Source: a virus
Taxonomy: Duplodnaviria; Heunggongvirae; Uroviricota; Caudoviricetes
Strand: one strand, 5' to 3'
IMG/VR virus record: IMGVR_UViG_2623620506_000008
Location: 1 to 27,625 of that record
DNA length: 27,625 nt
The notes beneath the pieces are model-generated. The model was not told where the DNA came from and ran no database searches. It saw nothing but the letters and a program-made list of their open reading frames with translations. Positions within the stretch are counted from its first letter, which is position 1. Each line of letters opens with the position of its first letter. Positions 3,188 to 27,625 of this stretch are shown here, in pieces. Position numbers and translations under genes: made by a program.

Positions 3188-3888
3188 CCTGCGTGCCCGG
3201 TCATGCCGTCCAGCGTCGGCGGTTTATCCCAGCGCACAAATTTATTCCGCATTTTGTAGTGGGAATCCCGAGTTCCGGCCCCTTCTATACGCCACCAGTA
3301 GCCCTCTGAACCAATCGACTCTGCGCGCGCCTGGGTGAGTGCTGTCGTGGCCCTGCCGATTTCGGTGCGGGCGATCATCTTCGCGCGGCTCTCCGCCACG
3401 TCGCCGGACTCCATAATCATCCGGTAGAGCGCGTCGGGGCGTTCACCGTTGATGACGGCTTCCATTGCACGCGCCTGGATATCACGAACGCGGTCGGCAG
3501 CCTCCAGCGGCAGAGATTTAATCAGCTGCACCTGGCGGGATACGATGTCCTGAGCCACGAACCCCACCGGCGTATTGCCGACGACATCACGTAGCCCCTC
3601 AGAGATTTCCTGCGATACCGAGCGCCACTGGTTCCACTCCTCCTGCTCAACCTGCAGGAACATGCGTTTGGCTACCCGGTCGGCCCAGTCGTCAATCAGC
3701 AGTGAGTAATCCATCAGCCGGGCGCTAACCTGCTCGGCGCTGACCTCCGAACCATCGTAAGAGTCCGTTACGATCGCCCCTACCTGCTGCGCTATCTCCT
3801 GTAGGCTTTTCTGATACTGGCGCTCCGATTTGCGGCGGAGGTTCGGTTTCAGATTCAGCCTCCTCCCATTCTGCTTTGGCATCTTCAA
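3130..3888 (-). CDS. Head morphogenesis protein (Mu F / SPP1 gp7-like)
   Basis: Position right after portal; probable true start is ATG at 3882 with AAGGA RBS (the track start is TTG). Confidence 0.6.
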   Translation of the reverse strand: MKMPKQNGRRLNLKPNLRRKSERQYQKSLQEIAQQVGAIVTDSYDGSEVSAEQVSARLMDYSLLIDDWADRVAKRMFLQVEQEEWNQWRSVSQEISEGLRDVVGNTPVGFVAQDIVSRQVQLIKSLPLEAADRVRDIQARAMEAVINGERPDALYRMIMESGDVAESRAKMIARTEIGRATTALTQARAESIGSEGYWWRIEGAGTRDSHYKMRNKFVRWDKPPTLDGMTGHAGCLPNCKCWPEVQVPPPRK

Positions 3889-5203
3889 TATCCTTGTCGG
3901 TGATAGAGCCGCCGATCCCGATGATGTCGGACAGGTTGCGGAGGTCGTTCAGAGCAGCGTGCTGCGGCATACCGATATCGCGTACGGCAGTCGCCAGGGC
4001 GGTGGCCACGTTACTCGCCATCGTCGCCCGGTCGGTATCCGACATCTCCCAGAGTTTATTGAACTCAAAGGTGAAGTCTTCCGGCAGAGGCTGACCAAAC
4101 AGGGAGCGCCAGGAGATGTCCAGCAGCCAGCGGATGTGCCGGCGCAGACGTCGTTCTTGCAGCGAGTTAACGCGGCTGTAGTAGTTCTCCAGATCCCCGT
4201 CGCCGGTGCTGAAACCGGATGGGGATTGTCCGAACAGACGCACCAGCGGGATCCCAGTTGCACCGGACACCTGCTCAGCAAAGCGCAGGATGACATCGGC
4301 GATGCCAGCGAACGAGTAGCTGTGGGTCTGGAATTCGTCTGACTTATCCATGATGGTCATGCCTTCGATGGTCTGAAACTCACGGATCATGTCCATGTGC
4401 TTCATCAGCCCCTCTTCCAGCGTGCCGCCAGTGGCCAGAATCTTGCGCAGCCCGTCAATGCTGTACGTGCGCAGGTGCGCCTTGTGAATCAGCTGTGTGG
4501 TGCCGACGGTTGCGGTATCGAACGCCTGAATGCGCTCGTAGATACGCTCGACTACCGACATTCCCCAGCCGTTCTCGGTCTGCGCCTGCTGGAATGGCAG
4601 CGAGTCGCCTTCCATGCGGATAATGCGGCTGTGGTGGATCTTCCAGGGCGGGATCCCCTGCTGGTTGGTCACAACCTTGTAGAATTTCGGCTTGCCGAAC
4701 TCCGGGCCGTAATCGGTCACCAGGTCGTAATAGCTCGGGTTGACCTGCCAGCGGTCCAGGCACATCACCCCTTTAAACTGCCCCTCCTTGATGCGGTCAA
4801 GCTTCAGCGGGGTGGACATATCCTGCCCTTCCAGCAGCACCACCAGCAGCGCACCGCCGTAAAGACGAGACCACTTCAGTGTGTCATTCAGACCGTCCCA
4901 GATGGCAATGTCATCCCAGAACATCTCAAACTTACCCTTCTGTCCGGGCTCGAGCTTGGAGCTGATGTTTATGCCCGTGCGGGTCATATCATCAGCCATA
5001 GCGTCCACACCGGCGCCCACCAGAAACGATGAGCGATACGCAAATTCCAGCTGTACGCGGTTACGCGAGATGTAGCCAGGCTGGTAACCCCCACCGCTCT
5101 GGATGTTGGATGTATAGCCGCCGAGCTTGGCCGCGAAGTTGTTGTACCCGTCACGCGTCCGGACGGGCTTCTGTGCGCCGGTCTGGCGTTTCTTTCGGGA
5201 CAT
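3725..5203 (-). CDS. Portal protein
   Basis: 492-aa ORF immediately downstream of the large terminase, ATG at 5203 with GAGGGG RBS; size and position typical of portal. Confidence 0.7.
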   Translation of the reverse strand: MSRKKRQTGAQKPVRTRDGYNNFAAKLGGYTSNIQSGGGYQPGYISRNRVQLEFAYRSSFLVGAGVDAMADDMTRTGINISSKLEPGQKGKFEMFWDDIAIWDGLNDTLKWSRLYGGALLVVLLEGQDMSTPLKLDRIKEGQFKGVMCLDRWQVNPSYYDLVTDYGPEFGKPKFYKVVTNQQGIPPWKIHHSRIIRMEGDSLPFQQAQTENGWGMSVVERIYERIQAFDTATVGTTQLIHKAHLRTYSIDGLRKILATGGTLEEGLMKHMDMIREFQTIEGMTIMDKSDEFQTHSYSFAGIADVILRFAEQVSGATGIPLVRLFGQSPSGFSTGDGDLENYYSRVNSLQERRLRRHIRWLLDISWRSLFGQPLPEDFTFEFNKLWEMSDTDRATMASNVATALATAVRDIGMPQHAALNDLRNLSDIIGIGGSITDKDIEDAKAEWEEAESETEPPPQIGAPVSEKPTGDSAAGRGDRNGLLRWFGGQRRAG

Positions 5204-13140: not shown

Positions 13141-14184
13141 ATGCACGGCTGGCCTTCATACGACCAATGCTTAGAAAAGCATTCTGAAGAAACCATAAGT
13201 GACTTGCACTTTGTTACCACACCACTTCGGAAATTTGAGCTGACCAGTGGCTGCGCAAACGGGGTAGCACATTGCCTATTTAATTCTATAGAAGTAAAGT
13301 ACCCAACATTATTCAGCTATTTGTTAAGGGAATTTATGAAAAGAGGAATGATAATCACGAGTAAAGTTGAGATAGATCAGGAAAATAACTCCGTTAAATT
13401 TAGACCAGAATTTAGCCAAAAGGCTCTGCGATATGGAGTGCTTTATCTTGATGAAATTTGTGTCGCGCAGACCTCTCTGTTTCAAATTGGATTGCCGGTT
13501 GATTGGCAACAACTAAAGAAGGAGAAAATAGTTAATGAGATCATTGGTAAGCCATCGCTCAGCGGAACGGTCGATTTTGCAAAAGCAGCTTTAGATGCAT
13601 ATTCCCAGTCGTTTTCTGAGTTAAACAAACGCCGAAATGAAACTTGGTGTCTCAATAAAGAATTCAAATTCCTCAATGAGCGCATTCCATTTATTGATTG
13701 TCATGGGGAAACTCTAACATTTTTGAATGCGCTTCCTGTGCCTACCGAAGACTTTCCTATAGGTGATCTTTATGAATTCCGCATAAAAAGAGATGATGAG
13801 CGCAAAGAGTTGATGAATTCAATTGATCGACTTAGGCTCAACGTTCTGAAAAGTGAAGATAAACACAATGCACTTAAAGTAGGCTTACTTGATGTTGAGA
13901 GTAATCTCATAACAATGAATCGCCTAATCAAAGAAACGAAGAGAGGTTTCTACCTTACTGATTTTTCATTGGATTACTCATCTAAAGATATGCTCGAAGT
14001 TTTCAAAGGAACATATGAAGCAACCACCACCTCAGGATTCGACAAACTTTCAGCATTAATCTTAGGTATGGGGGCATCACTAGCTTCAGGATTCAATTTT
14101 AAGGGGGGATACAGATATAAGCAGGCAAAACCAAACTCCCCTTATTTTTACGCAGCAGAGATAGTACATAAGTTTGATGTTTAA
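13141..14184 (+). CDS. Orphan low-GC protein, function unknown (moron)
   Basis: 347-aa ORF on the opposite strand to the surrounding early operon; GC about 32-43% against 55-60% flanks; alternative start ATG at 13336 with AAGGGA RBS; strong hairpin just after the stop. Confidence 0.6.
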   Translation: MHGWPSYDQCLEKHSEETISDLHFVTTPLRKFELTSGCANGVAHCLFNSIEVKYPTLFSYLLREFMKRGMIITSKVEIDQENNSVKFRPEFSQKALRYGVLYLDEICVAQTSLFQIGLPVDWQQLKKEKIVNEIIGKPSLSGTVDFAKAALDAYSQSFSELNKRRNETWCLNKEFKFLNERIPFIDCHGETLTFLNALPVPTEDFPIGDLYEFRIKRDDERKELMNSIDRLRLNVLKSEDKHNALKVGLLDVESNLITMNRLIKETKRGFYLTDFSLDYSSKDMLEVFKGTYEATTTSGFDKLSALILGMGASLASGFNFKGGYRYKQAKPNSPYFYAAEIVHKFDV

Positions 14185-14195
14185 TTCTTCAAAGT

Positions 14196-14228
14196 GAGGA
14201 TTCAAATTTTAAGCGCATTTGAATCCTC
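14196..14228 (+). terminator. Perfect 12-bp stem-loop after the orphan gene (terminator or insulator candidate)
   Basis: GAGGATTCAAAT-TTTAAGCGC-ATTTGAATCCTC, 12 nt after the stop; weak U-tract. Confidence 0.4.
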
Positions 14229-20068: not shown

Positions 20069-23000
20069 ATGGAATTTTTCTATGTGGTCAAAGCCACTCA
20101 GAAATCCGGTAAGAAAGATGCAGTGGTCTGGTTCACTGCCAAAACTCAATCTCGCGCCGCGCTGATGATGGACGTTGCGCTGGAAGACGCAGAAATTGAA
20201 AGTGGCCGCGGTAAAGACTACGCCAAGCCTGTACGCACCGATTTCCCAGTGTACGACGACCTCCCGGAAGAAGGTACCGTGGATTTCACCTGGTGCGAAC
20301 GCTATGAGCTGGCCGACGACCAGCGCACCTGGAACGTGATCCCCGGTGCCGCGGATCAGGGTGAAACCACCCTCGCCCCAGTGACCACCAGTGATGAAGA
20401 ACTGCCTGCCGCGCCGGTAACCTCTACTCATACCGCAGGCACCGGCAAAACGTCCCTGCTTGAAAATCGCACCCCGGCGGTTCGCTTCGCCGTCCATCTA
20501 TTGGGTGATAAATACCTTTCGGCGATCAGCCAGGAGCAGCACATCGTTGCCAACGAACTGGCGACCGATGAGGGGAATGCTTACTTCCAGAACCTGATGC
20601 AGGCCAAAAATGACGTTGGTGATATTGGCGATCTGAGCCTGCATACCGAGTGGAAACTGGTGCAGGCCGTTAAAGACGTTTTTCCTCAGGACAAAGTGCA
20701 CGAATCCGCGTCGCTGGCCGCCTTCATGTCGGGCTGGATTAACGCCGATGATCGCAACCAACTGGTTGATGACTGGAAGAGTGGAAAGCTCCCGGCCAAG
20801 AATGAGCCTGAACATTGGTATGAAGACGACCTGCAGATCTGCAAAGGCGATGATGAGTTTACTCGTTATCCGGTCTGCAAATTGCCATTCCGCCAACAGC
20901 TTCTCGCCCAACTGACGGTGGACGAACTGCGCCATCATGTCACCCGCGATGAACATACGGAACTGCATGCGCTGGAGAGTGATACCGACAACAGCTACGT
21001 CCAGACTCTTCTGCTTGCTGCTGAAAGCTGCCCAGAGTTGAAGGAATTCGATACCAAGGCCCTGTGGAGCTATACCAACGCGGTCCGAAAGGTATTCAGC
21101 CAGGAAAAACGTCACGAGTTGGCTCTGGTACTTCGCTTCACCAGAATCTGGGTGACTACTGAGGCCAGTGACCACGACATCCTGACCAGTGAATGGGCAG
21201 CCGGCCATCGCATTGATGATGTAGGTATTCAAAAAGACCAGAAATCCGAAGGGCCACAACCTTCAGAACCCTATAAGCGCGCAGTGCCGCAGAACATGGC
21301 GAACCTGAGCATCGAGATTGCGATCGCCATGCTATATCCAGACGCGGTACCCGGGAAAATCAACCGTGCGCAGCTGATGGCTGCCAAAGAACTGGCTGAC
21401 AAAAAAGACGAGACTCACTCCAGGGCGCTCAAGGTGCTCGGCAAAACCTCTGATATTACTGACTACAACGCTGACAGTATTTTTGGCATTGCCCGTGCAC
21501 TCCCCTGGAGTGGAGATATAACCACGGTCGAACTGCGTAAGCAGGTTCGTGAATGGTTCACCGCGAACGGTATCTATGAAAATGGCGAGCGTTCAAAGGG
21601 TTATCCAGAGTGGGATGAAGATCCTCGCGCAAGCCGCCAGGTGATGGTGGAAGAGCCAGTAGCTACCAGCCAGCCGCAGGTCGCGAACCTCGGCGGCGGC
21701 ATGTTCTCCATCGATGGCCTGCTGGGTGGAAATACTAACCCGGTCATCAATATCCCCTCACATGAAGTAGAAAAACCGGAAACCGTAGCGGAGACCACCA
21801 GCGATGTGCAGATGGAAGCGACTCAGCCAGAGAAAGACAAAACTGTTGATGCGGTACCAACAGGCGAAAGCGTTGATGCAGCTGATCCGCAAACAGATAC
21901 CCTGAACCCGGCTGAGGTGCTGGCCGCCGCGGCGCCGGAGCTGGCGAACGCCACCACGCAGGAATCGACCACCGAAGCGCCAGACGCGAAAGCGAGCGCG
22001 CCGGAAGAGCAATCCTCACAACCGGTCCCGGAATACCCGGCGTACTTTGAACCTGGCCGTTATGAAGGCCTGCCGAACGACGTTTATCACGCAGCAAACG
22101 GGATCAGCTCCACTCAGGTGAAAGATGCCCGGGTCAGCCTGATGTACTTCAACGCCCGCCACGTCGCCAAAACCATCCCGCGGGCCCCTTCCAAGGTGCT
22201 GGACATGGGTAATCTTGTTCACGCCCTGGCGCTTCAGCCCGAAAACCTCGAGGCAGAGTTCAGCGTAGAGCCGGAGATCCCGGAAGGTGCTTTCACCACC
22301 ACCGCCACCCTGCGCGAGTTCATCGACTCGCACAACGCCAGCCTGCCGGCGCTGCTGAGTGCTGACGATATCAAAGCGCTGCTTGAAGAGCACAACGCCA
22401 CCCTGCCCGCGCAGCTGACGCTGGGCGCCTGCATGGAGGAAACGGCGCAGAGTTACATGTCGCTGCCGGAAGAGTTCCAGCGTATTGAAGTGATTCAGAG
22501 AAAGACCGCGGCAGCCATGAAAGCCTGCATCAAAGAGTATAACGCCACCCTGCCCGTGCCGGTTAAAACCAGCGGCAGCCGCGATGCGCTGCTTGAACAG
22601 CTGGCAATCATCAACCCTGACCTGGTGGCGCAGGAAGCCCAGAAACCGGCACCACTGAAAGTGTCCGGCAGCAAAGCGGAAATGATCCAGGCGGTTAAGT
22701 CGGTCAAGCCTGACGCTGTATTCGCCGACGAGCTGCTGGACGCCTGGCGCGAAAATCCGGGCGACAAGATTCTGGTGACGCGCCAGCAGCTGGCGACCGC
22801 CCAGGCCATCCAGGCTGCCCTGCTGGCACACCCGACCGCCGGCATGCTGCTGACGCACCCGAGCCGCGCCGTTGAGGTGAGCTATTTCGGCTTTGACGAC
22901 GAAACCGGGCTGGAAGTGCGCGTGCGCCCAGACCTGGAACTGGACCTCAACAACCTGCGTATCGGTGCCGACCTGAAAACCATCAGCATGTGGAACGTTA

Positions 23001-23326
23001 AGCAGGAGAGCCTGCGCTCCCGGCTGCACCGGGAAATCATCGACCGTGATTATCACCTGAGTGCGGCCATGTATTGCGAGACCGCGGCGCTGGACCAGTT
23101 CTTCTGGATCTTCGTCAACAAAGACGAAAACTACCACTGGATCGCCATTATTGAGGCATCCGCAGAACTGCTGGAGCTGGGCATGCTCGAGTACCGCAAA
23201 ACCATGCGCGCTATCGCTACCGGATTCGACACCGGCAACTGGCCGGCGCCTATCACCGCTGATTACACCGACGAACTGAACGACTTCGACCTGCGCCGCC
23301 TTGAAGCGCTGCGTACTCAGGCATAA
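20069..23326 (+). CDS. recE: RecE-like exonuclease VIII, PD-(D/E)xK nuclease C-terminal domain with long N-terminal region
   Basis: 1085 aa; C-terminal region has nuclease-like D...E-L-D...D-L-K motifs (RPDLELDLNNLRIGADLKTIS); sits directly upstream of an annealase gene as in Rac recE-recT; N-terminus recalls RecE (FPVYDDLPEEGTVDFTWCERY). Confidence 0.65.
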   Translation: MEFFYVVKATQKSGKKDAVVWFTAKTQSRAALMMDVALEDAEIESGRGKDYAKPVRTDFPVYDDLPEEGTVDFTWCERYELADDQRTWNVIPGAADQGETTLAPVTTSDEELPAAPVTSTHTAGTGKTSLLENRTPAVRFAVHLLGDKYLSAISQEQHIVANELATDEGNAYFQNLMQAKNDVGDIGDLSLHTEWKLVQAVKDVFPQDKVHESASLAAFMSGWINADDRNQLVDDWKSGKLPAKNEPEHWYEDDLQICKGDDEFTRYPVCKLPFRQQLLAQLTVDELRHHVTRDEHTELHALESDTDNSYVQTLLLAAESCPELKEFDTKALWSYTNAVRKVFSQEKRHELALVLRFTRIWVTTEASDHDILTSEWAAGHRIDDVGIQKDQKSEGPQPSEPYKRAVPQNMANLSIEIAIAMLYPDAVPGKINRAQLMAAKELADKKDETHSRALKVLGKTSDITDYNADSIFGIARALPWSGDITTVELRKQVREWFTANGIYENGERSKGYPEWDEDPRASRQVMVEEPVATSQPQVANLGGGMFSIDGLLGGNTNPVINIPSHEVEKPETVAETTSDVQMEATQPEKDKTVDAVPTGESVDAADPQTDTLNPAEVLAAAAPELANATTQESTTEAPDAKASAPEEQSSQPVPEYPAYFEPGRYEGLPNDVYHAANGISSTQVKDARVSLMYFNARHVAKTIPRAPSKVLDMGNLVHALALQPENLEAEFSVEPEIPEGAFTTTATLREFIDSHNASLPALLSADDIKALLEEHNATLPAQLTLGACMEETAQSYMSLPEEFQRIEVIQRKTAAAMKACIKEYNATLPVPVKTSGSRDALLEQLAIINPDLVAQEAQKPAPLKVSGSKAEMIQAVKSVKPDAVFADELLDAWRENPGDKILVTRQQLATAQAIQAALLAHPTAGMLLTHPSRAVEVSYFGFDDETGLEVRVRPDLELDLNNLRIGADLKTISMWNVKQESLRSRLHREIIDRDYHLSAAMYCETAALDQFFWIFVNKDENYHWIAIIEASAELLELGMLEYRKTMRAIATGFDTGNWPAPITADYTDELNDFDLRRLEALRTQA

Positions 23327-23331
23327 GGGGA

Positions 23332-24450
23332 ATGACCATGGAAAACATGAACATCGTAACTGCAGAGCAACAGGCTCCGAACACAATTTCTGCAACCAAC
23401 TCCATTTTCAATGTCCAGGCGCTGACCCAACTCCAGGCGGTTGCTGGCTTAATGGCACAGGCGGCCGTGACAGTTCCCGAACACCTACGGGGCAACCCGG
23501 CTGACTGCATGGCGATTATCATGCAGGCCATGCAGTGGGGCATGAATCCTTACGCCGTAGCGCAGAAAACGCACCTGGTAAACGGCGTGCTGGGTTACGA
23601 GGCGCAGCTGGTTAATGCGGTGATCTCCAGCTCAAATGCCATCGTAGGCCGCTTCCATTATGAATATGAAGGCGACTGGTCGAAGTGCGCCCGGATACGC
23701 GAGGAGGTTGTTAAAAAGCCTGCCAAGGGTGGCGGGACCTATGAGAAAAAAGAAATTGTCCGCGGCTGGACCAGTGATGATGAGCAGGGACTCTCGGTTC
23801 GTGTGGGCGCAGTTCTCCGCGGTGAAAGTGAAATTACATGGGGCGAGCCGGTTTATCTGTCCAGCGTAATTACGCGCAACTCCCCTCTCTGGGTATCGAA
23901 CCCAAAACAGCAGATCGCCTATCTGGCGCTCAAATACTGGGCGCGCCTCTACTGCCCTGCAGTGGTGCTGGGCGTGTATACCCCTGATGAAGTTGAGCAA
24001 AGAACCGAAAAAGAGATTAACCCGGCACCAGCGCGCGTAAGCCTGTCTGATATTTCCGGTGACAACGTAACAACCACTCACAGCGCGCAGGAGTCGGCAG
24101 CCAACATCGATGCTATGGCCGATGAATTCCGGGATCGCATTGAGGCAGCCCAGGACGTGGACAATGCAAAAGCGCTGCGTGCCGACATCGAAACCGCTAA
24201 GGCAACGCTTGGAACTGCCCTGTACACCGAACTGAAGAATAAGGCCGTGAAACGCTATTACCACGTGGACGCGCGTAACAATGTCGAGGCAGCAATCAAC
24301 TCCCTGCCCCAGCCTGGCGAGCCGGATGCCGCCGAACAGTTCGCAGAAGCCGAGCGCGTGCTGGCATCTTCAAAGCGTCACCTGGGCGACGAACTGCACG
24401 ATCAGTTCAGCATCACCCTGGCGGATATGAAACCGGAATACGTGGCCTAA
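23332..24450 (+). CDS. recT: Single-strand annealing protein, RecT/Redbeta family
   Basis: Follows the exonuclease; segments resemble recalled lambda Bet (PLWVSNPKQQIAYLALKYWARLY versus PWQSHPKRMLRHKAMIQCARLAF); probable start ATG at 23338. Confidence 0.6.
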   Translation: MTMENMNIVTAEQQAPNTISATNSIFNVQALTQLQAVAGLMAQAAVTVPEHLRGNPADCMAIIMQAMQWGMNPYAVAQKTHLVNGVLGYEAQLVNAVISSSNAIVGRFHYEYEGDWSKCARIREEVVKKPAKGGGTYEKKEIVRGWTSDDEQGLSVRVGAVLRGESEITWGEPVYLSSVITRNSPLWVSNPKQQIAYLALKYWARLYCPAVVLGVYTPDEVEQRTEKEINPAPARVSLSDISGDNVTTTHSAQESAANIDAMADEFRDRIEAAQDVDNAKALRADIETAKATLGTALYTELKNKAVKRYYHVDARNNVEAAINSLPQPGEPDAAEQFAEAERVLASSKRHLGDELHDQFSITLADMKPEYVA

Positions 24451-24484
24451 GGGAGGCGGGAGGGTTCGCCCTCCCGGTAACGAT

Positions 24485-25318
24485 ATGTTAAGAGAAAAAC
24501 CTGTTAAGCACCCGGCGATCCGTTACCACGGCGGTAAATTCCGCTTGGCATCCTGGATTATCCCTCAGATGCCTGAGCACGTCTGCTACGTGGAACCGTT
24601 CGGCGGCGCAGCTGGCGTATTGCTGCAAAAGCCTCGCAGCTATGCGGAAGTTTATAACGACTTGGATGGTGAGGTGGTGAACCTGTTCCGGGTGCTGCGT
24701 GACGCAGAGATGAACCAGCGCCTGCAACATGCGTGCATGCTCACGCCTTATTCTCGTGATGAATTTTGCGCAGCGCATGAAGTCACCGAAGAACCGATTG
24801 AGCGAGCAAGACGCATGGTTGTCCGCGCCAGCATGGGCTTTGGTTCAGCAGCAGGAATTGGCGGTAATTCCGGCTTCCGTAGCGACAGCAAAAGGAAATA
24901 TGCGACAGCTGCGCATCTGTGGGAGCGTTATCCGGAAAATCTGGCAGCAGTATGTCAGCGCCTTCAGGGGGTCATTATCGAAAACAAAGATGCCCTGTCA
25001 GTAATGCGAGCCCATGACGCTGAAACAACCCTGCACTACATCGACCCGCCTTATGTACCCGAAACCCGCGTGCATGGTAACCGTTATTACAGCCACGAAA
25101 TGACTTTAGAGGGGCATGAGCAATTGCTCGCAGTAGCCAGAACGATGACCGGAATGGTGATGATCAGCGGCTACGACTCGGATGTGTACAACGACATGCT
25201 GGTCGGATGGAAGAAAACGAAAAAATCTTCACGCATTAGCGCCGGTAGGGGTACGAAGGTCCGCACTGAATGTATGTGGCTTAACCCAGCATCACAACAG
25301 GCGGAGCGTGCAGCATGA
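24485..25318 (+). CDS. DNA N6-adenine methyltransferase, Dam-like (orphan)
   Basis: YHGGK near the N-terminus, EPFGGAAGV, catalytic DPPY (HYIDPPYVPE); no restriction endonuclease gene adjacent. Confidence 0.85.
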   Translation: MLREKPVKHPAIRYHGGKFRLASWIIPQMPEHVCYVEPFGGAAGVLLQKPRSYAEVYNDLDGEVVNLFRVLRDAEMNQRLQHACMLTPYSRDEFCAAHEVTEEPIERARRMVVRASMGFGSAAGIGGNSGFRSDSKRKYATAAHLWERYPENLAAVCQRLQGVIIENKDALSVMRAHDAETTLHYIDPPYVPETRVHGNRYYSHEMTLEGHEQLLAVARTMTGMVMISGYDSDVYNDMLVGWKKTKKSSRISAGRGTKVRTECMWLNPASQQAERAA

Positions 25319-25554
25319 AACTGATTAACCGCAGCACACAATCCCCACTCGCGCGCCAGGCGTGCGATATCGCGCTGGCAGCCCATGCTGAGCGCTACGG
25401 CGATTATGGCCCCAGCAAGATGAAAGAGACGTACACCGTGCGGGTAGAAGGCGTGAAGGTCTGGGTGGAGGTGGTGAACCGGAAGGCAAGCTACGTGGCC
25501 ACTGCGATGACCGGCATGCGCAGGCTCCGCTCCCTGCCCGGGCAGGTTTCCTGA
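25315..25554 (+). CDS. Hypothetical small protein
   Basis: 79-aa ORF, ATG overlaps the dam stop (ATGA), GGAG RBS. Confidence 0.4.
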   Translation: MKLINRSTQSPLARQACDIALAAHAERYGDYGPSKMKETYTVRVEGVKVWVEVVNRKASYVATAMTGMRRLRSLPGQVS

Positions 25555-25567
25555 TACCAATATTTCA

Positions 25568-25891
25568 ATGACAAATTTCCGACAGCTTTATAATGAGTTG
25601 TCGGAAGCCGGAGGTAATATGGCCAAGCTTCTTAACCTGCAGGAATGGGCTAAAGAAACCTATTCAACACCGCCCTCTCTTTCTACCCTTCGCCGCTGGG
25701 CCAGGGAGGGGCGCATCTTTCCTGCACCAGCGCTTCATGGCAAAGAATATAAGGTTCAACCGGATGCTATCTATGTGGATCCGAGCAAAAAGAACCTGCG
25801 ACCGAAACCTAAACACATGACGCTGCCCGCCGGCGGCACCCTACTGGAGAGACTGACTCATGGCGAAAAGGCCAGTACGTTACGACGCTAA
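25568..25891 (+). CDS. xis: Excisionase, lambda Xis-like
   Basis: LNLQEWAKETYSTPPSLSTLRRWAREGRIFPAPALHGKEYKV resembles recalled lambda Xis; preferred start ATG at 25619 with GGAGG RBS; overlaps the int start. Confidence 0.75.
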   Translation: MTNFRQLYNELSEAGGNMAKLLNLQEWAKETYSTPPSLSTLRRWAREGRIFPAPALHGKEYKVQPDAIYVDPSKKNLRPKPKHMTLPAGGTLLERLTHGEKASTLRR

Positions 25892-26945
25892 TCTGCCCCG
25901 TAACCTGACCTATCGTAAAAGAGACAGGCTTTATAGCTGGCGCAACCCGACAACCGGCCAGGAAATATCTCTTGGCCGGATCGACAGGAAGGATGCCATC
26001 TCTCAGGCCATAGAGGCCAACAACTACATCGAACAGAATTACCTGCCCTCAGCTCTGCTTGACCGCATAAAGGAGACCCCTACCTTTACGGTTAAGAGCT
26101 GGCTTGAACGGTACGAGGTGATCCTTGAGCGAAGAGAGTTGAAGCCAAACACCATGAAGGTCAGGCGAAATCAGATCGCAACCATTAAGGATGAATTCGG
26201 CAAGATGCCGTTATCCTCAGTTAGCACGAAGGACATATCAAACTTTCTTGAGTCCTATATTTTATGCGACAAGAAAAGCATGGCCGCCGGCCTACGGTCC
26301 GTGCTGCTGGACATTTTCAGGGAGGCTATTGTCGAAGGGCATATAGAAAGGAACCCAGCGGATCCTACGCGAACGCCGACACCAAAGGTAAAACGGGAGC
26401 GTTTGCTGCTCGAGCATTTTATAGTTATCCGCGCGGCAGCTGCTTCCCACTCGGAGTGGTTGCCGAACGCCTGCAATCTTGCTCTGGTTACAGGACAGCG
26501 CCGCGAGGACATTTCGCTTTTTCGGTTCAGTGACGTTAAGGATGGTAGGCTATTTGTTACGCAGGAGAAGACGGGACACAAACTGGCGCTGCCGCTTGAT
26601 TTGAAATTGGAGGCCGTGGATCTTGTGCTTGAAGAGGTAATCGAACGCTGCAGAGTAAATAATCCCTCAGACTTTATGCTTTTCTCCCCAGTCAGGCGTG
26701 GGGGCAGAAAGCCGGGCCCCTTAACTCCAGATGGTTTAACCCAGGCTTTTGCGGATGTGCGAGATGCAACGGCGTTAAAATTTGGCCCGAACCCACCGCC
26801 CTACCATGAGATCAGAAGCCTGGCCAGCAGACTATATGAAAAGGAACGTGGAGAGGAATTCACGCAACGTTTGCTCGGCCACAAAAATTTAACAATGACA
26901 AAAAAATACCTGGACGCACGCGGTGCAGAGTATGTTATGGTTTAG
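25860..26945 (+). CDS. int: Tyrosine integrase, lambda Int-like
   Basis: Extensive similarity to recalled lambda Int (LALVTGQRREDI, HEIRSLASRLYEKE, LLGHK, Tyr near the C-terminus). Confidence 0.9.
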   Translation: MAKRPVRYDANLPRNLTYRKRDRLYSWRNPTTGQEISLGRIDRKDAISQAIEANNYIEQNYLPSALLDRIKETPTFTVKSWLERYEVILERRELKPNTMKVRRNQIATIKDEFGKMPLSSVSTKDISNFLESYILCDKKSMAAGLRSVLLDIFREAIVEGHIERNPADPTRTPTPKVKRERLLLEHFIVIRAAAASHSEWLPNACNLALVTGQRREDISLFRFSDVKDGRLFVTQEKTGHKLALPLDLKLEAVDLVLEEVIERCRVNNPSDFMLFSPVRRGGRKPGPLTPDGLTQAFADVRDATALKFGPNPPPYHEIRSLASRLYEKERGEEFTQRLLGHKNLTMTKKYLDARGAEYVMV

Positions 26946-27213
26946 ACAGGATATGGATTATTCGAGTAAGTTTCGGGGGATTTCGTGAGAACACCGAAAA
27001 AACCCTTAAGAAACAAATAGATAAAAAGAGACCGAATACGATTCCTGTATTCGGTCCAGGGAAATGGCTCTTGGGAGAGAGCCGTGCGCTAAAAGTTGGC
27101 ATTAATGCAGGCTTAGTTGCCTTGCCCTTTAAGAATAGATGACGACGCCAGGTTTTCCAGTTTGCGTGCAAAATGGTCAATAAAAAGCGCGGTGGTCATC
27201 AGCTTAAATGTTA

Positions 27214-27257
27214 AAAACCGCCCGTTCTGGTGAAAGAACTGAGGCGGTTTTTTTATT
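27214..27257. terminator. Bidirectional rho-independent terminator between int and the host gene
   Basis: AACCGCC...GGCGGTT stem with inner GTTCT/AGAAC pairing, flanked by AAAAA on one side and TTTTTTTATT on the other. Confidence 0.5.
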
Positions 27258-27283
27258 GGAAATCAAAACGCTAGTTTAGGTAA

Positions 27284-27625
27284 TTAACAGAGTTTTTCAG
27301 CTCGTTCTATAAACGGTGCCAGACTCATTTTTTCGCCGGGATTGTTAGGATCATCAATCTGAATCACCGAAATGGGTTGGGCTTTAGTCTTCCCACTGGC
27401 AACTTCCTTTTGTGCGATATCGTTTAAAGGATACTGCACGAGGGTACTTGGGTTGATGACATACAAAGCATTACCCGGTCGGCAAGTCAGCATCACCTCT
27501 TCGCGATTAAACGCCCATTTGTCTTTACCCACTTCAAAACGGCTGACGGTAATCACCTGCGGTGCAGCCAGCGCCGCTGCAGAACTGGTGAGTAACAGAA
27601 ACGCCAGAATACTTTTTTTCATCAT
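27284..27625 (-). CDS. yebY: Host periplasmic protein, YebY-like (DUF2511)
   Basis: 113-aa product with signal peptide [22 protein letters not shown]; closely matches the recalled E. coli YebY; ORF starts at the window edge. Confidence 0.6.

What the first reader, a model, noticed from the sequence alone, without database searches (positions are those of the whole stretch)
26946..27283. Integration junction without tRNA, with a perfect 10-bp inverted repeat downstream of int
The prophage end and attachment core must lie between the int stop and the host terminator at 27214-27257, but no tRNA-like sequence is present. GACCGAATAC-GATTCCT-GTATTCGGTC (27030-27056) lies 85 nt after int with no U-tract. 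It could be an Int or IHF arm site, or an RNase III-type retroregulatory (sib-like) structure.
Basis: partly seen in the sequence, partly recalled or inferred. Interest (0 to 1): 0.4.

Follow-up and report, generated by a model that had tools for sequence, protein, structure and literature searches.

The report
Prophage inserted in sdsR sRNA terminator
The inverted repeat is the transcription terminator of the well-known host small RNA SdsR (RyeB), read on the opposite strand, and the prophage has integrated into the 3' end of that sRNA gene just as other phages integrate into tRNA genes, which was already described for Salmonella in 2008.

Summary
The repeat GACCGAATAC-GATTCCT-GTATTCGGTC is at 27030-27056 as reported. 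It is not an orphan structure. On the minus strand it is followed by CTTTTTATC and forms the Rho-independent terminator of the sRNA SdsR/RyeB (Rfam RF00111, 27122..27023, 116 bits). The antisense SraC/RyeA (RF00101, 178 bits) overlaps it on the plus strand.

All 5,426 complete E. coli genomes match the window from about 27016-27019 rightwards. Comparing the empty K-12 site with both junctions of related elements defines a 28-bp duplicated core, ATAAAAAGAGACCGAA[C/T]ACGATTCCTGT (window 27021-27048). It covers the T-tract, the descending stem arm, the loop and 2 nt of the other arm.

An allele at 27037 tracks with the flanks: C at 16/16 E. coli pphA-side junctions and T at 66/66 yebY-side junctions. 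This places strand exchange at 27038-27048, probably in the 7-nt loop.

The Int is lambda-type. Three 10-bp-phased TTCG repeats at 26960-26989 are the likely arm-type sites.

Integration rebuilds sdsR but cuts off the ryeA promoter and pphA.

There is no tRNA. The arm-site, IHF and sib readings of the hairpin are not supported. ryeB as a phage attachment hot spot is published (Balbontin 2008). The finding is real but ordinary.

The parts
25619..25891 (+). xis (lambda-type excisionase); the mechanical ORF starts at 25568, the likely start is ATG 25619 after GGAGG
   Evidence: Pfam PF07825 Exc, E 7e-23. The annotated homologues in L002 and L003 are 273 nt and overlap the int start in the same way.
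25860..26945 (+). int, lambda-type (heterobivalent) tyrosine integrase, 361 aa
   Evidence: Pfam Arm-DNA-bind_1 + Phage_int_SAM_3/Phage_int_M + Phage_integrase. It is 39% identical to HK022/434/lambda-group Int and 76.5% to the Int of Flyfo siphovirus Tbat2_3. It is 93% and 88% identical to the Ints of E. coli remnants L002 and L003, and 50% to the common E. coli lineage L123.
26960..26989 (+). three tandem 10-bp-phased repeats ATTCGAGTAA / GTTTCGGGGG / ATTTCGTGAG: proposed arm-type Int binding sites (analogue of lambda P'1-P'3)
   Evidence: Three phased TTCGnnn repeats sit at the same distance (-62 to -33) from the core in every phage lineage using this site, although the surrounding arm sequence is unrelated. 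The same motif recurs at +118 and +140 in the int-distal arms and on both sides of the attP of phage Tbat2_3. Binding is inferred, not shown.
26992..26999 (-). inverted copy of the arm motif (TTTCGGTG on the - strand), within the conserved ACCGAAAAAACC block
   Evidence: Motif scan (-31 hit); conserved in part of the window-type Int lineage. Function inferred.
27021..27048 (.). attachment core: 28-bp block ATAAAAAGAGACCGAATACGATTCCTGT shared by host attB and phage; 27023-27048 is common to all lineages
   Evidence: It is present once in the empty K-12 site and as a direct repeat at both ends of related elements L002 and L003. It is found in at least 119 IMG/VR contigs with host or phage flanks. 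Homology to all E. coli genomes begins at 27016-27019.
27037..27037 (.). allele marker (T here; C in most empty E. coli sites) that locates the crossover to its right
   Evidence: C at 16/16 E. coli pphA-side junctions and T at 66/66 yebY-side junctions. The same C-left/T-right pattern is seen within single elements L002, L003 and L034/L057. Empty sites: the exact C 78-mer occurs in 5052 genomes and the exact full-length T 78-mer in 41.
27040..27046 (.). GATTCCT, the terminator loop: proposed 7-bp overlap (strand-exchange) region
   Evidence: The exchange must lie in 27038-27048, which is right of the allele marker and inside the identity block. A 7-bp spacer between inverted 10-bp arms matches the core geometry of lambda-type att sites (established knowledge). 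The exact cleavage points are inferred.
27030..27056 (-). the reported inverted repeat = SdsR Rho-independent terminator stem-loop; the left arm (27030-27039) lies in the duplicated core and the right arm (27047-27056) is host apart from its first 2 nt
   Evidence: hairpin -15.8 kcal/mol, followed by a U-run on the - strand.
27021..27122 (-). sdsR (ryeB) sRNA gene, complete; its last ~26 nt lie in the core
   Evidence: Rfam RF00111 27122..27023, 116.4 bits (gathering 38), full model 1-100. It differs from K-12 SdsR by one base (G86A). Published 3' ends are +100 to +102 (PMC6610125).
27021..27254 (+). body of ryeA (sraC), cut off from its own promoter and its first ~39 nt
   Evidence: Rfam RF00101 27019-27163, 178.5 bits. 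The ryeA TSS is at sdsR +141, about 39 nt left of the core, and its 3' ends are at +261 to +270 (PMC6610125), which maps to the T-run 27248-27254. In lysogens the promoter segment sits at the distal junction (L002 and L003 left flanks).
27214..27257 (.). bidirectional intrinsic terminator: ryeA on the + strand, yebY on the - strand
   Evidence: RyeA 3' RACE positions; position just after the yebY stop.
27284..27625 (-). yebY (host)
   Evidence: Annotated as yebY under the match in all E. coli genomes.

Best explanation
The inverted repeat is the intrinsic terminator of the host sRNA gene sdsR (ryeB), which is transcribed on the minus strand from 27122 to about 27022. A lambdoid prophage with a lambda-type Int and Xis has integrated into the 3' end of this gene.

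The phage attP carries a copy of the last ~26 nt of sdsR: the T-tract, the descending stem arm, the loop and 2 nt of the other arm. Recombination with attB therefore rebuilds a complete sdsR at the int-proximal junction, in the way tRNA-targeting phages rebuild the tRNA. Strand exchange occurs to the right of position 27037, most likely across the 7-bp loop GATTCCT. The two stem arms would then act as the inverted core-type Int sites. The three phased TTCG repeats at 26960-26989 would act as arm-type sites.

The following are inferred from published E. coli and Salmonella work. The antisense gene ryeA loses its promoter and first ~39 nt. pphA loses read-through transcription from the sdsR promoter. 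Any int read-through would run antisense across sdsR to the ryeA terminator.

Shown here: the RNA gene identity, the core, the side of the crossover and the conserved arm repeats. Inferred: the exact cleavage points, protein binding and the expression consequences.
For: Rfam matches to SdsR_RyeB (116 bits) and SraC_RyeA (178 bits), both full length. Terminator call on the - strand. SdsR fold z = -4.0. No tRNA.

All 5,426 E. coli genomes match from 27016-27019 rightwards, and only 5 match the int side. The 28-bp block is single in K-12 and duplicated at both ends of L002 and L003. In IMG/VR, the core occurs with a host-left flank and C (16) and with a host-right flank and T (66).

The complete circular phage Tbat2_3 has the arrangement int - three TTCG repeats - AAAAAAAAGACCGAATAC-CAATCCT-GT - phage DNA, which is a true attP. 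The Int has a lambda arm-binding domain and sits next to an Xis. Arm repeats are conserved in position across lineages whose Ints are only 50% identical.

Literature: the last 23 bp of ryeB are the att site of phage PhiW104, and lysogeny lowers ryeA and raises ryeB (PMC7380047 citing Balbontin 2008; PMC3333887; PMC3603311). The ryeA TSS and 3' ends, and pphA read-through from the sdsR promoter, come from PMC6610125.
Against: The distal junction of this particular prophage lies outside the window. No identical prophage was found (the nearest relatives are 80-85% identical at DNA level), so the duplication is shown only for relatives.

The T allele is not exclusive to phage: 41 empty E. coli sites carry it. 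The origin of T in this window is therefore a strong statistical inference, not a proof.

The published core is 23 bp, against 26-28 bp here. The primary paper could not be read.

The cleavage positions, Int/IHF binding and the transcriptional consequences in this strain are untested.
Confidence: 0.93

Rival explanations
1. The hairpin is a phage-encoded protein-binding element of the att arm: an arm-type Int site or an IHF site.
For: It lies next to int, in the region where lambda has its P' arm. The Int has an arm-binding domain.
Against: The stem-loop is host sequence in all 5,426 E. coli genomes, 5,189 of which have an uninterrupted spacer. A different motif, three phased TTCG repeats at 26960-26989, is conserved at a fixed distance in all lineages and recurs in the distal arm. 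The hairpin contains no WATCAANNNNTTR on either strand (read from the sequence).
Confidence: 0.03
2. The hairpin is a sib-like retroregulator. Read-through int mRNA folds into it and RNase III cleavage triggers decay of int mRNA.
For: No + strand terminator was called between the int stop and the hairpin, so int read-through would include it. On the + strand the T allele stabilises the hairpin (-11.1 to -15.4 kcal/mol).
Against: A 10-bp stem is about half the length of known RNase III substrates such as lambda sib (established knowledge). The full hairpin exists only in the integrated state: the attP-like sequence folds weakly (-7.6 kcal/mol). That is the opposite of sib logic. The structure is fully explained as the SdsR terminator.
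Confidence: 0.03
3. Same identity (SdsR terminator and att core), but strand exchange is not centred on the loop. The overlap region would be offset (for example 27038-27044 or 27042-27048), and the stem arms would not be the core-type Int sites.
For: The allele data only bound the exchange to 27038-27048. The identity block ends just 2 nt beyond the loop. Phage-side right arms are only loosely dyad-symmetric, for example 6/10 in L002.
Against: A 7-bp spacer between 10-bp inverted arms fits lambda-type core geometry. The phage right arms (GTTTACGGC, GTTTTCGTC, GTATTCGCC and others) retain a degenerate copy of the host arm GTATTCGGTC. In Tbat2_3 the loop differs while the left arm is kept, as expected if the loop is the host-specific overlap.
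Confidence: 0.25
4. The inverted repeat is a chance palindrome with no function.
For: Roughly 0.13 such perfect repeats are expected per shuffled window, so one on its own would not be compelling.
Against: Full-length covariance-model matches at E 1e-22 and 1e-41, conservation in all E. coli genomes, and experimentally mapped SdsR 3' ends at this position.
Confidence: 0

Closest known systems
ryeB/ryeA (sdsR/sraC) insertion hot spot of Salmonella enterica; phage PhiW104 and others (Balbontin, Figueroa-Bossi, Casadesus, Bossi 2008, J Bacteriol 190:4075)
   Same: Same sRNA gene, and the same sub-site (the last ~23-28 bp of ryeB, internal to ryeA). ryeB is rebuilt and the ryeA 5' part is replaced. 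The site is used repeatedly by several elements (for the literature; for the data here).
   Different: The host here is E. coli. The Int lineage of the window is rare in E. coli (about 5 of 5,426 complete genomes, all decayed remnants where inspected), and a different lineage (Int 50% identical) occupies the site in 228 genomes. I could not read the primary paper, so its exact core cannot be compared base by base.
Phage integration into the 3' end of tRNA/tmRNA genes (Campbell 1992; Williams 2002)
   Same: The attP carries a copy of the 3' end of a structured RNA gene, so the gene is restored on integration. A stem-loop with a 7-nt loop supplies the dyad-symmetric core. The int gene lies next to the rebuilt RNA gene.
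   Different: The target is a Hfq-binding regulatory sRNA terminator, not a tRNA arm (no tRNA). The locus is bidirectional, so integration truncates the antisense gene ryeA.
Lambda attP / Int-Xis-IHF intasome
   Same: Int with an N-terminal arm-binding domain, and Xis overlapping the int start. Three tandem arm-type-like repeats lie in the int-proximal arm and two in the distal arm. There are IHF-like sequences between arms and core in several lineages.
   Different: Int is only 39% identical to the lambda/HK022 group. The arm motif is TTCGnnn rather than the lambda arm consensus. The core is an RNA terminator rather than the gal-bio spacer. Binding was not tested.
P2 attachment next to cyaR (ryeE) in E. 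coli (Wassarman 2001, as cited in PMC3603311)
   Same: Another enterobacterial sRNA gene whose 3' end is used as a phage attachment site.
   Different: A different sRNA, phage family and integrase.
Lambda sib retroregulation
   Same: A hairpin downstream of int that read-through transcripts would contain.
   Different: sib is a long RNase III hairpin of phage origin that integration separates from int. Here the hairpin is short, of host origin, and complete only after integration.

Membership tests
SdsR/RyeB sRNA (Rfam RF00111) | Covariance-model match above the gathering score, full length | tested here: met
   116.4 bits against a gathering score of 38; model 1-100 of 100; 27122..27023 on the - strand
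SdsR/RyeB sRNA (Rfam RF00111) | Located downstream of yebY on the same strand, with a Rho-independent terminator | tested here: met
   yebY at 27284-27625 on the - strand. Terminator of 11 pairs plus CTTTTT on the - strand. Synteny rule from PMC3333887.
SdsR/RyeB sRNA (Rfam RF00111) | RpoS-dependent expression of a ~100-nt RNA | not testable with these tools
   The region upstream of 27122 reads the same as K-12 up to a single C/T difference at about 27188 (read); expression itself cannot be tested here
SraC/RyeA sRNA (Rfam RF00101) | Covariance-model match above the gathering score | tested here: met
   178.5 bits against a gathering score of 37; 27019-27163 on the + strand
SraC/RyeA sRNA (Rfam RF00101) | Own sigma-70 promoter and 5' end about 39 nt upstream of the sdsR 3' end | tested here: not met
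   The sequence left of 27019 is phage DNA (P' arm and int), not the K-12 ryeA promoter region. TSS position from PMC6610125. The gene body is present but severed from its promoter.
Phage att site in the 3' end of ryeB (Balbontin 2008 type) | Identity block between phage and host covering the last ~23 bp of ryeB | tested here: met
   Block 27021-27048 overlaps the last ~26 nt of sdsR
Phage att site in the 3' end of ryeB (Balbontin 2008 type) | The same block repeated at the other end of the prophage | tested here: inconclusive
   The distal end of this prophage is outside the window. The repeat is shown for relatives L002, L003 and L034/L057.
Phage att site in the 3' end of ryeB (Balbontin 2008 type) | The block is carried in attP of a free phage genome next to int | tested here: met
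   Circular genome of Flyfo siphovirus Tbat2_3 (Int 76.5% identical) has the block, with a variant loop, 86 nt after the int stop codon, flanked by phage DNA. This is a relative, not this phage.
Lambda-type heterobivalent tyrosine integrase system | Int with arm-binding N-domain, core-binding domain and catalytic domain; adjacent Xis | tested here: met
   PF09003, PF14659/PF22022 and PF00589 in Int; PF07825 in Xis
Lambda-type heterobivalent tyrosine integrase system | Arm-type binding sites on both arms of attP | tested here: inconclusive
   Conserved phased TTCGnnn repeats occur at fixed offsets in both arms across lineages. This is sequence evidence only, with no binding data.
tRNA/tmRNA-gene integration | A tRNA or tmRNA gene at the junction | tested here: not met
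   ARAGORN finds 0 genes in the window, and there is no tRNA/tmRNA Rfam hit
Lambda sib-type retroregulator | Long (about 20 bp or more) phage-encoded RNase III hairpin beyond att, removed from int by integration | tested here: not met
   The stem is 10-11 bp, derives from the host, and is complete only in the integrated state; the attP-like sequence folds at -7.6 kcal/mol

The most novel reading that the evidence does not exclude
Nothing terminates transcription between int and the ryeA terminator. The prophage int mRNA, but not the mRNA of the excised phage, would therefore carry ~230 nt of RyeA sequence as its 3' UTR, and this stretch is perfectly complementary to the abundant stationary-phase sRNA SdsR. 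SdsR pairing followed by RNase III cleavage could make int expression in lysogens depend on host RpoS status. This would be an 'inverse sib' retroregulation supplied by the host. Conversely, int read-through could replace the lost RyeA as the antidote to SdsR. None of this is tested here.
Probability: 0.1. Interest if true: 0.45.

Novelty: already known. Interest (0 to 1): 0.13.

Why it matters
It corrects an annotation trap. A junction 'without tRNA' is not anomalous here, because the target is an sRNA gene on the other strand.

The locus has some practical relevance. Lysogeny at this site leaves SdsR intact but removes the promoter of its antisense partner RyeA, and it separates pphA from the sdsR promoter that mainly drives it. 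Lysogens may therefore differ in SdsR/RyeA balance and in pphA expression.

About 4% of complete E. coli genomes carry an element at this site, almost all from one Int lineage. The window shows a second, rare lineage. None of this changes current understanding.

Tried and rejected
1. A megablast of int plus junction against the phage collection found nothing. Only a protein search found relatives.

2. The primary paper (Balbontin 2008, PMC2395037) is not held, so I used three papers that cite it.

3. I looked for this prophage's own distal junction. The core occurs once in the window. No complete E. coli genome holds the same prophage: the best int-region match is 82% identical at DNA level, and the two inspected (L002, L003) are decayed remnants. 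The fetched IMG/VR loci are at most 85% identical. The duplication is therefore shown only for relatives.

4. I considered that the T at 27037 is strictly phage-derived. I rejected this as an absolute because 41 empty E. coli sites carry T.

5. I considered that the T allele strengthens the SdsR terminator. I rejected this because both alleles fold at -15.8 kcal/mol (G.U against A-U); only the RyeA-sense hairpin changes.

6. The arm-site, IHF and sib readings of the hairpin were rejected (see the rival explanations).

7. I asked whether the split sites that are not exact T-type junctions reflect a different insertion point. They do not: 228 genomes carry another Int lineage at the same core, with a variant phage-side core copy. 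Separately, two genomes turned out to have IS1 or ISVsa5 insertions elsewhere in the locus.

Full report
**The observation**

The sequence GACCGAATAC-GATTCCT-GTATTCGGTC is at 27030-27056, exactly as reported. It begins 84 nt after the stop codon of a 361-aa integrase gene (25860-26945). ARAGORN finds no tRNA or tmRNA in the whole window. Perfect inverted repeats with 10-bp arms and a loop of 3-10 nt are uncommon: there are 2 in the window against a mean of 0.13 in shuffles.

The statement 'no U-tract' holds only for the plus strand. On the minus strand the stem is followed immediately by CTTTTTATCT, and the consensus scan calls it an intrinsic terminator with 11 pairs and a 7-nt loop.

**What it is**

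A scan of the window against Rfam gives two full-length matches over this spot:
- SdsR_RyeB (RF00111), minus strand, 27122..27023, 116.4 bits against a gathering score of 38.
- SraC_RyeA (RF00101), plus strand, 27019-27163, 178.5 bits against 37.

The reported hairpin is the terminator helix in the SdsR model. The 121-nt minus-strand RNA folds at -37 kcal/mol, z = -4.0. SdsR here differs from the K-12 RNA by one base, G86A.

The locus is the known pphA-sdsR/ryeA-yebY spacer of E. coli. yebY is the minus-strand ORF at 27284-27625.

The 'host terminator' at 27214-27257 folds as a terminator on both strands. Published 3' RACE puts RyeA 3' ends at +261 to +270, with the ryeA start at sdsR +141 (PMC6610125). 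That maps to the T-run 27248-27254. This hairpin therefore terminates ryeA on the plus strand and, by position, yebY on the minus strand.

**Where the junction is**

All 5,426 complete E. coli genomes match the window from 27016-27019 rightwards, and only 5 match the int side.

I aligned four sequences: the empty K-12 site (L001), both junctions of two decayed related elements that lie between pphA and yebY (L002 and L003, with Ints 93% and 88% identical to the window's), and the window junction. Together they define a 28-bp block, ATAAAAAGAGACCGAA[C/T]ACGATTCCTGT. It is single in K-12 and is a direct repeat at both ends of the elements. In the window it is 27021-27048.

Read on the sdsR strand, the block contains 2 nt of the ascending stem arm, the 7-nt loop, the whole descending arm and the U-tract. 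This agrees with the published statement that the last 23 bp of ryeB, internal to ryeA, are the attachment site of Salmonella phage PhiW104 and an insertion hot spot (PMC7380047 and PMC3333887, both citing Balbontin et al. 2008; PMC3603311). I could not read the primary paper.

**The phage carries the block**

A scan of IMG/VR for the 26 bases common to all copies returned at least 119 contigs.

The closest named phage by Int (76.5% aa identity) is Flyfo siphovirus Tbat2_3, a complete circular genome. Just after its int gene it has three TTCGGG repeats, then AAAAAAAAGACCGAATAC-CAATCCT-GT, then unrelated phage DNA. That is a true attP. Its different loop suggests a host with another sdsR allele.

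**Side of the crossover**

Position 27037 is polymorphic. I classified the IMG/VR copies by their flanks:
- Junctions with the E. coli pphA-side flank carry C (16 of 16).
- Junctions with the yebY-side flank carry T (66 of 66).

The same C-left/T-right arrangement holds within single elements L002, L003 and L034/L057.

Among E. coli genomes, the exact C-type 78-mer occurs in 5,052 and the exact full-length T-type in only 41. So host DNA supplies the sequence left of the exchange at the distal junction, and phage DNA supplies it at the int-proximal junction. The exchange must lie between 27038 and the end of the identity block at 27048.

This interval contains the 7-bp loop GATTCCT, flanked by the two 10-bp arms. 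That is the geometry of a lambda-type core: two inverted core-type sites around a 7-bp overlap. The phage-side right arms (GTTTACGGC, GTTTTCGTC, GTATTCGCC and others) are degenerate copies of the host arm GTATTCGGTC. I therefore propose the loop as the overlap region, at moderate confidence. Cleavage sites were not mapped.

One consequence follows. In K-12 the DNA repeat is 9/10, which gives a G.U pair in SdsR. This does not change SdsR hairpin stability (-15.8 kcal/mol for both alleles), but it does stabilise the RyeA-sense hairpin (-11.1 to -15.4). The 41 empty T-type sites mean this origin is probable, not certain.

**The recombination machinery and the real arm sites**

Int has the lambda arm-binding domain (PF09003), the central and SAM-like domains and the catalytic domain. 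The upstream gene is a lambda-type excisionase. Int is 39% identical to HK022/434-group Ints.

In the 75 bp between the int stop and the core, three 10-bp-phased repeats (ATTCGAGTAA, GTTTCGGGGG, ATTTCGTGAG; 26960-26989) sit 62 to 33 nt from the core. Every lineage that uses this core has three phased TTCGnnn repeats at the same offset, including lineages whose Int is only 50% identical and whose arm is otherwise unrelated. The motif recurs at +118 and +140 in the distal arms and on both sides of the Tbat2_3 attP. Several lineages also have a canonical IHF consensus between the repeats and the core; the window's version is weaker (read).

These repeats, not the hairpin, are the likely arm-type sites. 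This rests on sequence evidence only.

**Consequences (inferred from the literature)**

sdsR is rebuilt intact, and its promoter region matches K-12.

The ryeA promoter and the first ~39 nt of ryeA lie left of the core. They are therefore left at the distal junction (L002 and L003 left flanks). The ryeA body in the window is preceded by phage DNA, and no sigma-70-like promoter was called in 26800-27625. For PhiW104 lysogens, reduced ryeA and increased ryeB expression are reported.

In E. coli, pphA is transcribed mainly by read-through from the sdsR promoter. A prophage between them should cut pphA off from that promoter.

No plus-strand terminator was called between int and the ryeA terminator. 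Int read-through would therefore be antisense to SdsR. This underlies the speculative 'novel case'.

**How common it is**

Of 5,426 complete E. coli genomes, 5,189 have an uninterrupted spacer and about 234 have it split at the core. Of those, 228 carry one lineage, typified by L123. It is a Rac-like prophage with recE, recT, ralR, xis and an Int 50% identical to the window's. Its core copy differs on the phage side (AAAAAAGGCCGAATAC...), which again fits an exchange to the right.

The window's Int lineage is seen in about 5 genomes, as decayed remnants in the two I inspected.

The window itself is a lambdoid prophage with large terminase, portal, head protease, O-like replication protein, RecE/RecT, a Dam-like methylase, DUF4060, Xis and Int.

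**Comparison and verdict**

This is a member of a known kind: phage integration into the 3' end of the sRNA gene ryeB/sdsR. It works by the same logic as tRNA-gene integration and uses a lambda-type Int/Xis system.

What this analysis adds is modest: localisation of the exchange to 27038-27048 by allele segregation, the conserved arm-repeat architecture, and occupancy figures for E. coli.

Novelty: already known. Interest: low.

Noticed in passing
window 14198-14226: The only other perfect 10-bp inverted repeat in the window is GGATTCAAAT-TTTAAGCGC-ATTTGAATCC. It starts 14 nt after the stop of a 347-aa ORF of unknown function (13141-14184; phrog_23128) and has no clear T-run after it on the + strand. 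It might be a terminator or an operator.
   Followed up: partly
E. coli genomes, site equivalent to window 27021-27056 (e.g. NZ_CP025849.1, H69): 41 complete E. coli genomes have an empty pphA-yebY spacer that already carries the T allele (perfect hairpin). These could be natural polymorphism or scars of past lysogeny and excision.
   Followed up: partly
L123 (E. coli CS6L) 3871-4056 and 228 E. coli genomes: A second Int lineage (50% aa identity; Rac-like prophage with recE, recT, ralR) occupies the same sdsR core in 228 of 5,426 complete E. coli genomes, including O103 STEC. Its phage-side core copy differs (AAAAAAGGCCGAATAC), so these lysogens should make an SdsR with an altered terminator arm.
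   Followed up: partly
L006, L023, L033, L123 and similar loci, about 70-95 nt left of the core: In the non-window lineages the int-proximal arm contains AAAAAGACCGGAATACAGAAATTCGG. This resembles the core/terminator itself (AAAAAGAGACCGAATACGATTCCTGTATTCGG) and might be a vestigial or secondary core-like site.
   Followed up: no
L124 (E. coli FDAARGOS_944) and L125 (E. coli 2017-03-3CC): IS1 and ISVsa5 (IS4-family) insertions lie within the sdsR/ryeA locus at positions equivalent to about window 27110-27116, near the sdsR 5' end. They are independent of the phage att core.
   Followed up: partly
L102 (two cores about 6.3 kb apart), L014 (two cores about 8.3 kb apart; one is followed by TTCCG TTTCCG repeats): Some contigs have phage DNA on both sides of a core copy, or two cores close together. 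This suggests tandem or nested elements at the hot spot. One core is followed by a (TTTCCG)n microsatellite.
   Followed up: no
L046, L059, L063, L072, L118 (left flank TTGCCCTGGATGGCATCGCATTCGCCACAT): A recurrent non-E. coli left flank abuts the same core with the T allele. This is presumably the distal junction in another enterobacterial genus, so the hot spot is used across genera. The host was not identified.
   Followed up: no
window 20069-25554: The int-proximal early region encodes a 1085-aa RecE-like exonuclease (Exonuc_VIII N-terminus plus a PDDEXK C-terminus), RecT, a D12-class adenine methyltransferase and a DUF4060 protein. This is a Rac-like recombination module.
   Followed up: partly
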